Shown here: positions 21,001-23,025 of the stretch, one piece after another
How the letters are laid out: the number at the start of each line of letters is the position of its first letter
Numbering within the stretch: the first letter of the stretch is position 1
Assembly: GCA_964471155.1 (NCBI GenBank)
Contig: CAYYFX010000001.1
Coordinates: 45,596 to 109,595 of the forward strand
DNA length: 64,000 nt
Origin: an uncultured Gemmatimonadota bacterium
Lineage (GTDB): Bacteria; ARS69
Direction: 5' to 3'
Made by a program: the position numbers

Positions 21001-23025
21001 GGTAACCGCGGAAGTGCCATTGCCGCAGGACCAGCGCGCCGCCTGCGTTGGGGAACCTCTCCCGCCCGAAGAAGTGGACCTGTCCGTTGCTCCCCACTGC
21101 GAAGTGTGACGAGCCCGCCGGCAGGTCCCCGATTGTGGACGTGACCGGGGTGGCCGCCTCCCAGGAGGCGTCCGGATCCGTCACGGCCTTGCGCGTGTGC
21201 CAGATGGTGGCGGTTGCCCGGTGGCGGAACATCACGTGCAGGGTGTCGCTCTCCGAGTCCTGGAGGGCGATGTTCGGGCTGTCGAAGCCCCGATTCACCG
21301 AGTCCGGAGAAATGATGTGAACCGCGCCCCACGTGGACCCATTCCGGTGCCGGAAGCCGACGCGCGGCTCGGTGCTCTCACCAAGCGGCTGGCCCGGATC
21401 CCAATAGAACACCTCCATCGCCACGTACGCGTCGTCGTCCGCACCCACCGCGATGTTCAAATCCGTCGTCCGATGGCCGGAGGTCGTGTCCGTCACCAAC
21501 TCGGCGCTCGCCCAGGACCCCGCGGGATCCCAGTCCGCACCGAGGACTAGGTAGTAGGCCAAAGCCTGGTTTCCGGCCGGAGTGTCGGGTGATTCCTGGA
21601 CGCGCACCAAGCTCTGCCAGGTCGTTGCGGGGGAGTGCCCACGCGTGCCGCTTCCGGAGTTGGGGTCGTACAGCGGGGGCGTCGCCTGCGTGACCTGCCC
21701 CTTCGGCTCCCACAGCCATCCGGCTCTCGCAAGCGAGACCAGCGTGAGTCCGGCAAGCACCGGCAAGCCCAGGCGGTGGCACCAACGTGCTCCCGTAGTC
21801 AGCATGGTCCTACCTCCTGGCCGCACGTGCGGTCGGAACGGGCGAGGTCGGTATGGTGTCCGGAGGCGCCGCGGTCGGCGCGACGGTCAGATTGCGAGGA
21901 GAGGAGAGGAGAGGAGAGGAGAGGAGAGGAGAGGAGAGGTCGTCCTCGGAGCCATTGCAGCACCCCCGATGTGCACGACAGATGGCATGCTACTTGGATG
22001 GCGCGCCCGCGTCAAGACAAGGCAGTCGTGCGCATTGTCGTCTTGCAATGAGCAGGGTGACTTTCGTCAGTTCTCCGCCGGGCGCCGGCGAGCCGCCCAC
22101 CCCTGCCCCGGTCCGTCCGGCCCCGGGGGGCGACGCGACGCCCGCCCACAGGTTAGAGTCCCGTGTCACGACTCCATGAGGAGCACCCATGGAAGACCCC
22201 CGCTGGCAACGCGTTCGCGACCTCTTCGCCGCCGCCGTCGAGCTCCCGGCGGAGGCCCGCGGCGCGTTCCTCGACGACGCCTGCGGCGACGACCCCGCGC
22301 TCCGCGCCGAGGTGCAGGCACTCCTCGCGGCCGACTCGCGCGAGCACTCCCTCCTGGACGCCGGCGCCGCCGAAGCCGGGTTCGCCGACCTCCTCCCCGC
22401 GGACGCCCCGCTCGAGGACACGGTGGTCGGGAAGCGCATCGGGCCGTGGCGCATCGTGCGGCCCATCGGCACCGGCGGTATGGGCGCGGTCTATCTCGCG
22501 GAGCGCGACGACGGCGAGTTCCGGCAGACCGCCGCGCTCAAGCTGATCCGCCGCGGCATGAACTCCGCGGAGATCCTGGCCCGCTTCCGCGCGGAGCGGC
22601 AGATCCTGGCACGGCTGGACCACCCGGGCATCGCGCGGCTCCTGGACGGCGGCATCTCCGCGGAGGGACGGCCGTGGTTCACCATGGAGTACGTGGACGG
22701 CGCGCCGATCGACCGGTACTGCGACGAGCACGCGCTGGACCTCGAAGACCGGCTGGGGCTCTTCGCCGACGTCTGCGACGCCGTCCGCTACGCGCAGCGC
22801 AACCTCGTGGTGCACCGCGACCTCAAGCCCGGCAACATCCTCGTCACGCCGGACGGCACCGTGAAGCTGCTGGACTTCGGCATCGCGAAGCTCCTGGATC
22901 CCACGGATGCGGGCCTCTCCACGAGCAGCGCCGGCGTCACGCGCACGGGCTCGCGCCCCATGACGCCGGGGTACGCGGCGCCCGAGCAGGTGCGCGGGCA
23001 GCCGGTGACCACCGCCACCGATGTC

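What the first reader, a model, noticed from the sequence alone, without database searches (positions are those of the whole stretch)
21897..21939. Shine-Dalgarno-like pentanucleotide microsatellite (AGGAG)x8.6 in a divergent promoter region
A perfect 43-nt tandem array of AGGAG lies 92-134 nt upstream of the start codon of the 1125-aa secreted-protein operon (- strand) and about 250 nt upstream of the divergent STK gene. Short tandem repeats of this length are classic slipped-strand mispairing substrates, so repeat-number changes would alter promoter spacing or 5'UTR length, which is phase variation. On a leftward transcript the array reads (CUCCU)n, an anti-Shine-Dalgarno mimic. On a rightward transcript it reads as eight tandem SD sites that could sequester 30S subunits. 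Both would be unusual post-transcriptional devices. Its translation in two frames (RGEERRGEE...) produces spurious track ORFs.
Basis: seen in the sequence. Interest (0 to 1): 0.55.

Follow-up and report, generated by a model that had tools for sequence, protein, structure and literature searches.

The report
Slippage-prone repeat before a secreted-protein operon
A perfect 44-base five-letter repeat lies just upstream of a secreted-protein operon in an uncultured soil-type bacterium (Gemmatimonadota), and because a related gene in another genome has a different repeat at the same place, it is most likely a mutational on/off or dimmer switch, not an RNA device that mimics ribosome-binding sites.

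Summary
A perfect (GAGGA)x8.8 array lies at 21896-21939. It is the only long microsatellite in 64 kb, 91-134 nt upstream of the ATG (21805) of a 1125-aa secreted beta-helix protein and 250 nt upstream of a divergent Ser/Thr kinase. The one sigma-70-like promoter in the intergenic region (22015-21987, minus strand) lies upstream of the array. The array would therefore be transcribed as (CUCCU)n in a ~175-nt leader. Folding leaves the array unpaired, and Shine-Dalgarno (SD) accessibility does not depend on copy number, so the anti-SD and SD-sponge ideas gain no support. The main new evidence is comparative. The gene heads a conserved three-gene cassette in Gemmatimonadota. Across 171 kb of such loci there are only two long perfect repeats, and both lie at the 5' end of the large gene. 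The second, (TCCGCTC)x8.4 in another MAG, lies between an SD-preceded ATG and the mature N-terminus, and that ATG is currently out of frame, as in the Neisseria opa switch. Two unrelated repeat units at the same position point to slippage itself as the function. The best reading is a contingency (phase or graded variation) repeat. This is a known kind of element in a phylum where I found no report of it. Copy-number polymorphism could not be tested.

The parts
21896..21939 (.). Perfect pentanucleotide microsatellite (GAGGA/AGGAG)x8.8. It is all-purine on the + strand, reads (CTCCT)n on the - strand, and is a perfect mirror repeat.
   Evidence: TRF; sequence; census; probe
21987..22015 (-). Sigma-70-like promoter, TTGACG (22015-22010) - 17 nt - TAGCAT (21992-21987). 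The predicted transcription start is near 21980, upstream of the array.
   Evidence: 1 found, 0.0 expected in shuffles; only 4 such sites in the whole window on both strands, and at least 3 of them lie upstream of gene starts.
21806..21980 (-). Inferred ~175-nt 5' leader of the operon mRNA, with the array at about +41 to +85
   Evidence: Inference; folds
21887..21955 (-). Possible upstream ORF. ATG at 21955 is preceded by GGGGG (21967-21963, 7-nt spacing) and encodes MAPRTT plus repeat-encoded residues. It stops at TGA 21889-21887 at the present copy number. With -1 unit it stops at TAG 21812-21810, just 3' of the main SD and 4 nt before the ATG. With +1 unit it stops at TGA 21801-21799, overlapping the main start (ATGCTGA).
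   Evidence: simulated copy numbers. Translation of this ORF is not shown.
21813..21818 (-). Shine-Dalgarno AGGAGG of the 1125-aa gene, 7 nt before the ATG at 21805-21803
   Evidence: SD use is common in the window
18428..21805 (-). Gene for a 1125-aa secreted protein: signal peptide, beta-helix, C-terminal FlgD Ig-like domain. First gene of the cassette.
17109..18416 (-). Second cassette gene, a 435-aa right-handed beta-helix protein
16550..17104 (-). Third cassette gene, 184 aa, with a weak DNRLRE-domain match
22189..25047 (+). Divergent Ser/Thr protein kinase with TPR repeats (952 aa); SD GAGGAG 5 nt before the ATG

Best explanation
The array is a hypermutable slipped-strand tract, that is, a contingency repeat. 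It lies in the transcribed 5' leader of a three-gene operon for secreted beta-helix proteins in an uncultured Gemmatimonadota bacterium. Replication slippage adds or removes 5-nt units. This changes leader length and the reading frame of anything translated through the tract, so individual cells in a population express the operon at different levels (graded or on/off). The function lies in the repetitiveness, and the resemblance of the unit to a Shine-Dalgarno sequence is incidental. Shown: the array, its uniqueness and purity, its position, the secreted nature of the product, and the parallel repeat in a homologue. Inferred: the transcription start, any effect on expression, and actual copy-number variation.
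For: (1) The array is a perfect, uninterrupted 8.8-copy tract with sharp borders. It is the only SSR longer than 19 nt in 64 kb. (2) It lies 91 nt upstream of a gene with a signal peptide, beta-helix and FlgD_ig domain, which is the class of surface or secreted product typical of SSR-controlled genes (PMC11868660, PMC7302503). (3) The gene heads a conserved large/mid/small cassette found in 8 loci. In about 171 kb of these loci only two perfect SSRs of 25 nt or more exist, and both lie at the 5' end of the large gene. For the second one, found without regard to repeats, the chance of landing within 200 nt of one of 6 starts in about 108 kb is roughly 1%. (4) The second SSR is (TCCGCTC)x8.4 at L003 8401-8459. 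It lies between ATG 8386, which has GGAGG 6 nt upstream, and the conserved mature N-terminus 'SWIWTPR'. That ATG is out of frame now and in frame at -1 or +2 units. The annotated GTG start leaves only 14 residues before the mature end and has no SD. This is a textbook frame-dependent switch. (5) The two units are unrelated in sequence; one is all-purine and the other is not. What they share is slippage, not a motif. (6) The closest relative, P0002, is a mosaic. Its N-terminal ~425 aa are 24-54% identical, the central 400 aa are 92-100% identical, and the neighbouring gene is 85% identical. This recombining, diversifying pattern is expected of an exposed variable protein. (7) The promoter-like site lies upstream of the array, which matches the position of the M. 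catarrhalis uspA2 AGAT(n) tract, 132 bp upstream of its ORF (PMC7302503).
Against: No copy-number polymorphism was observed. The locus occurs once in the accessible collections, and the ortholog's upstream region could not be fetched. Only 2 of 7 family loci with a visible 5' end carry an SSR. In the window the repeat cannot shift the main ORF, because TGA 21889-21887 lies in the main frame and the gene has its own SD and ATG. An effect on expression therefore needs an indirect route that has not been demonstrated. Thermodynamic folding predicts no dependence of RBS accessibility on copy number. The transcription start is only predicted. Long SSRs with 5-9-nt units are reported to be more common in large, high-GC, non-pathogen genomes, with no proven role (PMC4692102).
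Confidence: 0.45

Rival explanations
1. The array is a neutral by-product. It arose by a recent slippage expansion in a tolerant intergenic spacer, has no effect on either flanking gene, and will decay or be lost.
For: No functional readout is available. Folding shows no effect on the RBS. Five of 7 family loci lack any SSR. (AGGAG)n arrays occur sporadically in many unrelated metagenomic contigs, mostly intergenic, next to unrelated genes. Long SSRs are reported as more frequent in high-GC, large-genome non-pathogens (PMC4692102).
Against: It is the only such tract in 64 kb, and it lies at the same gene-family position as the only SSR in about 108 kb of homologous loci. The homologue's SSR is in a frame-critical position. 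Perfect purity over 44 nt argues for ongoing slippage turnover or a very young age.
Confidence: 0.33
2. The array is a sequence-specific RNA device. Either (CUCCU)n in the leader pairs with and masks the operon's SD (or titrates SDs in trans), or (AGGAG)n on a rightward transcript acts as a sponge for 30S subunits or a GGA-binding protein.
For: UCUCCU can pair with AGGAGG (5 Watson-Crick pairs plus 1 G-U; direct reading). The organism uses SD sequences. At 9 or more copies the ensemble gives about 0.2 probability of SD-repeat pairing.
Against: The minimum-energy and centroid folds leave the array unpaired, and the leader is less structured than its shuffles (z = +2.2). SD unpaired probability is 0.17-0.19 with 0 to 16 copies. 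No rightward promoter lies upstream of the array. Rfam has no match, including to the CsrB/Rsm-type families it holds. The homologue's repeat has an unrelated unit. (AGGAG)6 is rarer than the same-composition control (AAGGG)6 in viral contigs (5 vs 26).
Confidence: 0.07
3. The array is a DNA-structure element. The 44-bp homopurine-homopyrimidine mirror repeat forms an intramolecular triplex (H-DNA) under the negative supercoiling generated between divergent genes, and this modulates both promoters.
For: The tract is pure purine on one strand and a perfect mirror repeat. It lies between divergently oriented genes. From my own knowledge, the CTCTT repeats of the neisserial opa genes were reported to adopt H-DNA in vitro (Belland 1991); I did not check that paper here.
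Against: The proposal rests on sequence alone. The homologue's repeat TCCGCTC is not homopurine-homopyrimidine, so H-DNA cannot be the feature the two share. No data exist on supercoiling or triplex formation in this organism.
Confidence: 0.07

Closest known systems
Moraxella catarrhalis uspA2 AGAT(n) tract (and the uspA1 poly-G tract): an SSR upstream of the ORF that grades transcript level
   Same: It is a short-unit perfect SSR about 130 bp upstream of the start codon of a surface protein gene. It lies outside the ORF, so copy number is expected to tune expression level, not reading frame (PMC7302503: AGAT tract 132 bp upstream, 13-18 units, about 3-fold mRNA differences). The window's array lies 91-134 nt upstream and, by prediction, within the leader.
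   Different: The unit here is 5 nt and purine-only. The host is a free-living, high-GC, uncultured Gemmatimonadota bacterium, not a host-restricted pathogen. Neither variation nor an expression effect has been shown here.
Neisseria opa CTCTT pentamer coding repeat
   Same: It is a pentanucleotide pyrimidine repeat on the sense strand (CTCTT there, CTCCT here) at the 5' end of a gene for an exported protein (PMC13183285, PMC3745409). The L003 homologue, with its heptamer between the ATG and the mature N-terminus, matches the opa logic closely.
   Different: In the window the repeat is not in the main ORF. A TGA follows it in the main frame, and the gene has its own SD, ATG and complete signal peptide downstream.
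Haemophilus influenzae hmw1A/hmw2A 7-bp repeats and Neisseria meningitidis nadA TAAA repeats (SSRs upstream of or between promoters)
   Same: These are SSRs in the upstream region of adhesin genes, where repeat number changes expression without frameshifting. This comparison rests on my own knowledge; I did not check it in papers here.
   Different: Those tracts act at or upstream of the promoters. Here the only promoter-like site is upstream of the tract.
Intergenic heptamer SSRs of Xanthomonas and Nostoc (GGGAATC, GGGGAYT)
   Same: These are long SSRs with units longer than 4 nt in intergenic regions of environmental, high-GC or large genomes, with roles that are largely unresolved (PMC4692102).
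   Different: Those are multi-copy families with G-quadruplex potential, scattered over the genome and usually nearer the neighbouring upstream ORF. Here there is a single array in 64 kb, with no G3+ runs, tied to one gene family.

Membership tests
SSR-mediated contingency (phase-variable) locus | Perfect or near-perfect short-unit tandem tract long enough for slipped-strand mispairing | tested here: met
   8.8 perfect copies, 44 nt. This is well above the minimum unit counts used to call candidate phase-variable tracts (PMC7302503).
SSR-mediated contingency (phase-variable) locus | Tract lies in the 5' part of an ORF or in the promoter/leader of the controlled gene | tested here: met
   It lies 91-134 nt upstream of ATG 21805 and downstream of the only promoter-like site.
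SSR-mediated contingency (phase-variable) locus | Controlled gene encodes a surface, secreted or modification function | tested here: met
   Signal peptide, beta-helix and FlgD_ig domain. The closest relative shows a mosaic, hypervariable N-terminal domain.
SSR-mediated contingency (phase-variable) locus | Copy number differs among cells, strains or reads | not testable with these tools
   Only one instance of the locus is retrievable. No read data are available.
SSR-mediated contingency (phase-variable) locus | Expression changes reversibly with copy number | not testable with these tools
   This needs reporter fusions or transcript and protein measurements.
opa-type translational switch (coding repeat in the signal-peptide region) | Repeat lies between the start codon and the mature protein, so that unit changes shift the main reading frame | tested here: not met
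   In the window, TGA 21889-21887 lies in the main frame directly after the repeat, so no copy number fuses an upstream start to the ORF. The feature is met in the homologue L003.
Promoter-spacer SSR (hif, porA, opc type) | Tract lies between the -35 and -10 hexamers and sets their spacing | tested here: not met
   The tract is 44 nt, and both hexamers of the single promoter-like site lie upstream of it. No hexamer pair brackets it.
Leader SSR (uspA2 type) | Tract lies between the transcription start and the start codon | tested here: inconclusive
   It holds if the predicted promoter at 22015-21987 is used. No experimental transcription start is available.
Cis anti-SD sequestration element | Pyrimidine tract pairs with the SD in the favoured fold and lowers RBS accessibility | tested here: not met
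   The array is about 80% unpaired. SD accessibility is 0.17-0.19 regardless of copy number, and P(SD-repeat pairing) is 0.08 at 8 copies.
CsrB/RsmZ-type protein sponge RNA (tandem GGA motifs) | A transcribed small RNA with multiple GGA motifs presented in hairpin loops, matching known families | tested here: not met
   No Rfam match at E<=5 other than two chance-level hits. No rightward promoter lies upstream of the array. The motifs are 5 nt apart in an unstructured run.
H-DNA-forming tract | Homopurine-homopyrimidine mirror repeat of about 15-20 bp or more | tested here: met
   44 bp, all purine on the + strand, perfect mirror symmetry. Triplex formation itself is not testable here.

The most novel reading that the evidence does not exclude
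The array is a frame-setting element for an upstream ORF, not for the main gene. A short ORF starts at ATG 21955 (GGGGG 7 nt upstream) and is translated through the repeat. At the present copy number it stops 81 nt before the operon's start. With one unit fewer it stops 4 nt before the main ATG, and with one unit more it stops overlapping the main ATG (ATGCTGA). The main SD is predicted to be largely base-paired. Ribosomes finishing the upstream ORF at the RBS would open it or re-initiate there, so slippage would switch translational coupling on and off. This would be an SSR-driven switch that acts through uORF termination position. Together with the frame-dependent heptamer in the homologue, it would be, to my knowledge, the first phase-variation system described in Gemmatimonadota.
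Probability: 0.1. Interest if true: 0.7.

Novelty: new member of a known kind. Interest (0 to 1): 0.42.

Why it matters
SSR-driven phase variation has been studied almost only in host-adapted pathogens. A 2025 review names soil and ocean bacteria as a knowledge gap (PMC11868660), and my text search found no paper describing it in Gemmatimonadota. This study found two independent repeats at the 5' end of the same secreted-protein cassette in two Gemmatimonadota genomes, plus a mosaic, hypervariable N-terminal domain. That gives a concrete, testable candidate for bet-hedging control of an exposed protein in a free-living phylum. It also has a practical consequence for annotation. Gene callers placed the homologue's start after the repeat (P0004), which hides an out-of-frame start, so genes of this kind may be systematically mis-annotated in MAGs.

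Tried and rejected
1. Fetching the same locus or its ortholog to compare copy number failed. Exact-protein look-ups found nothing for the window's 1125-aa and STK proteins, P0001, P0002, P0009 or P0028. A genome-contig scan with the protein found nothing. A flank-plus-repeat pattern in metagenome contigs gave 0 hits. L126, a relative whose large gene is 88% identical over the part present, starts inside the large gene and lacks the 5' end.
2. A search with the STK N-terminus gave only hits of 57% identity or less over the whole query, so no syntenic relative was found that way.
3. An opa-like fusion of an upstream start to the main ORF is rejected for the window because of the in-frame TGA at 21889-21887.
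4. Cis anti-SD sequestration is rejected on the folding ensembles.
5. No known RNA family matches the region.
6. I asked whether (AGGAG)n arrays mark this gene family elsewhere. None of the 120 metagenomic loci carrying (AGGAG)6 encodes the cassette. Most are low-GC or lie at contig ends and are probably eukaryotic. The bacterial-looking ones sit next to unrelated genes.
7. The SD-like unit is not enriched as an array: 5 viral contigs carry it, against 26 for the compositional control.
8. Promoter scans upstream of the large gene in relatives (L003, L127, L128, L130) found no sigma-70-like site, so there is no comparative support for the leader length.
9. Inverted-repeat and operator searches in the intergenic region gave only weak GC-rich pairs.

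Full report
**Observation.** The window is about 72% G+C. At 21896-21939, Tandem Repeats Finder reports a period-5 array with 8.8 copies, 100% matches and score 88. My census of perfect repeats puts the next longest in the 64 kb at 19 nt. A 15-nt probe with one mismatch allowed hits only inside this array, against 0.01 hits expected in shuffles. At this base composition the chance of 39 consecutive lag-5 matches is about 3e-21 per position (my calculation). The array is therefore real and was produced by slippage. Its borders are sharp, with no degenerate units in the flanks. It is all-purine on the + strand and a perfect mirror repeat.

**Surroundings.**
- On the minus strand an ORF starts at ATG 21805. 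AGGAGG lies at 21818-21813, 7 nt upstream.
- The ORF encodes a 1125-aa protein with a signal-peptide-like N-terminus, a right-handed beta-helix and a C-terminal FlgD Ig-like domain.
- It is followed on the same strand by a 435-aa beta-helix protein (17109-18416) and a 184-aa protein with a weak DNRLRE-domain match (16550-17104).
- On the plus strand a 952-aa Ser/Thr kinase with TPR repeats starts at 22189.
- Relatives of the large protein come from Gemmatimonadota MAGs.

**Transcription.**
- The 1-kb region holds one sigma-70-like site. It is on the minus strand: TTGACG (22015-22010), 17 nt, TAGCAT (21992-21987), with none expected in shuffles.
- Applying the same rule to the whole window on both strands gives only four sites, and at least three lie upstream of gene starts in the right orientation. 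The rule is therefore fairly specific in this genome.
- If this promoter is used, transcription starts near 21980, and the array is transcribed as (CUCCU)n at about +41 to +85 of a ~175-nt leader. This step is inferred, not shown.
- A 44-nt tract cannot be a -35/-10 spacer, so the classical promoter-spacing form of phase variation does not apply.

**The RNA-device ideas.**
- Folding the predicted leader leaves the array unpaired in both the minimum-energy and centroid structures. The leader is less stable than its shuffles (z = +2.2).
- I built leaders with 0 to 16 units and computed pairing ensembles. The SD is 0.17-0.19 unpaired at every copy number, because other leader sequences pair with it. 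The probability that SD bases pair with the repeat is 0.08 at 8 copies and about 0.2 at 9 or more. The array stays about 80% unpaired.
- The cis anti-SD model therefore gains no support.
- For the rightward-transcript idea, no promoter-like site lies upstream of the array on the + strand, and Rfam gives only two chance-level hits.
- In 2.9 million viral contigs, (AGGAG)6 occurs in 5 loci and the same-composition control (AAGGG)6 in 26. Arrays of the SD-like unit are not favoured.

**Translational switching of the main gene.** In the main frame a TGA (21889-21887) follows the repeat directly. Simulated copy numbers from -3 to +3 units never join an upstream start to the ORF. The gene has its own SD, ATG and complete signal peptide downstream of the repeat. 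The opa-type mechanism is therefore excluded in the window.

**Comparative evidence.**
- Direct comparison of the same locus failed. The window's proteins, the 100%-identical database entry P0001 and the closest relative P0002 (69% identity) could not be traced to contigs. Two genome scans and a flank-specific metagenome scan did not recover the locus.
- More distant homologues could be fetched: L001/L002, L003, L126, L127, L128, L129 and L130. All carry the same cassette of a large (~1000-1185 aa), a mid (~440 aa) and a small (~185 aa) gene.
- In about 171 kb of window plus family loci, only two perfect repeats of 25 nt or more exist: the window's array and (TCCGCTC)x8.4 at L003 8401-8459. 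Both lie at the 5' end of the large gene.
- L003 was retrieved by protein homology, without regard to repeats. The chance that its single SSR falls within 200 nt of one of the six large-gene starts in about 108 kb is roughly 1% (my calculation).

**The L003 repeat.**
- It lies between ATG 8386, which has GGAGG at 8375-8379, and the conserved mature N-terminus 'SWIWTPRTQV'.
- The database protein P0004 was started at GTG 8486. That leaves 14 residues before the mature end, with no charged n-region and no SD.
- From ATG 8386 the frame is closed at the present 8.4 copies. It opens into the full protein at -1 or +2 units.
- A second ATG (8342, no SD) is in frame now. Whichever start is used, the heptamer is frame-critical.
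- This is the logic of the Neisseria opa CTCTT repeat (PMC13183285, PMC3745409).
- The two repeat units are unrelated and only one is homopurine. The feature the two loci share is therefore tandem repetition at the gene's 5' end. This favours slippage-based hypermutability over any motif-specific function such as an SD mimic or H-DNA.

**Further context.** P0002 is a mosaic relative of the window's protein. Residues 1-425 are 24-54% identical, residues 476-875 are 92-100% identical, and the C-terminus is 58-90% identical. The adjacent gene is 85% identical. A hypervariable N-terminal domain joined to an identical core indicates recombination and diversification, as is typical of exposed proteins.

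**Mechanism.** The best-supported reading is a contingency repeat in the operon's leader.
- The nearest experimentally studied parallel is M. catarrhalis uspA2, where an AGAT(n) tract 132 bp upstream of the ORF changes mRNA level about 3-fold (PMC7302503).
- How copy number would act here is not shown.
- One concrete possibility is an upstream ORF. It starts at ATG 21955, with GGGGG 7 nt upstream, and runs through the repeat. It stops 81 nt before the main start at the present copy number. It stops at TAG 21812-21810 (4 nt before the main ATG) with one unit fewer, and at TGA 21801-21799 (overlapping the ATG) with one unit more. The main SD is predicted to be mostly paired, so uORF termination at the RBS could couple translation. 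I rate this at about 0.1.
- The unstructured pyrimidine run could also act as a length-tunable ribosome standby site. This is conjecture from general knowledge.

**Rivals.**
- A neutral, recent expansion remains a serious alternative (about 0.33). No polymorphism has been seen, 5 of 7 family loci lack a repeat, and long SSRs are reported to be commoner in high-GC, large-genome non-pathogens (PMC4692102).
- (AGGAG)6 arrays occur in at least 120 metagenomic contigs. Many have low G+C or sit at contig ends, and I take those to be mostly eukaryotic. In the high-GC subset I examined, the arrays are mostly intergenic and lie next to unrelated genes.
- The sequence-specific RNA device and H-DNA models each get about 0.07.

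**Novelty and scoring.**
- SSR-mediated phase variation is a well-known kind of system.
- A text search found no paper describing it in Gemmatimonadota, and a recent review lists soil and ocean bacteria as a gap (PMC11868660).
- I file this as a new member of a known kind, with moderate interest (0.42).
- The window's array alone is an unproven candidate. The paired observation with L003 makes it worth a read-level test.

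Noticed in passing
L003 8342-8560 (Gemmatimonadota MAG contig CAZNDO010000021.1): A perfect heptanucleotide repeat (TCCGCTC)x8.4 lies between an SD-preceded ATG (8386) and the mature N-terminus of P0004, a homologue of the window's large protein. That ATG is out of frame at the present copy number and in frame at -1 or +2 units. A second ATG (8342, no SD) is in frame now. The database start (GTG 8486) looks wrong.
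   Followed up: yes
window 18428-21805 (-) versus protein P0002: The two proteins show mosaic identity. The N-terminal ~425 aa are 24-54% identical, residues 476-875 are 92-100% identical, and the C-terminus is 58-90% identical. This suggests domain swapping or gene conversion in a hypervariable secreted protein. Whether P0002 is a paralogue in the same genome or an orthologue in another is unknown.
   Followed up: partly
window 16550-21805 (-); L002, L003, L126-L130: A three-gene cassette is conserved: a large secreted beta-helix/FlgD_ig protein, a ~440-aa beta-helix protein, and a ~185-aa DNRLRE-like protein. It is present in at least two full copies plus extra mid/small gene pairs in one genome (GCA_046330135.1; L128, L129). 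Its function is unknown.
   Followed up: partly
window 21953-21955 and L003 8386-8400: The ORFs that enter the two unrelated repeats begin with similar peptides, MAPR(TT) in the window and MQAPR in L003, encoded by different codons. This may be coincidence or a vestige of a shared signal-peptide start.
   Followed up: no
L130 6559-10004: The large cassette gene is called as two overlapping ORFs (6559-8046 and 8001-10004), which implies a frameshift. No SSR or homopolymer lies at the junction. It may be an assembly error or a pseudogene.
   Followed up: partly
L087 2727-2759: In a 68% G+C metagenomic contig, an (AGGAG)6.6 array reads CTCCT on the sense strand about 20 nt upstream of a gene for a protein with a clear signal peptide (MKTHNMLKTLVALIAFAAMPAVAA). 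The orientation is the same as in the window. There is no stop between the array and the ATG in that frame.
   Followed up: no
window 21969-21979 and 22025-22035: An 11-nt inverted repeat (ATGTGCACGAC / GTCGTGCGCAT, 91% complementary, 45 nt apart) brackets the predicted minus-strand promoter. It may be an operator or a chance match.
   Followed up: no
window 21853-21857 (- strand, CCUCC in GCGCCUCCGG): A perfect anti-SD-like CCUCC lies in the leader between the repeat and the SD. The SD is predicted to be mostly paired whether or not the repeat is present, but I did not establish which leader bases pair with it.
   Followed up: partly
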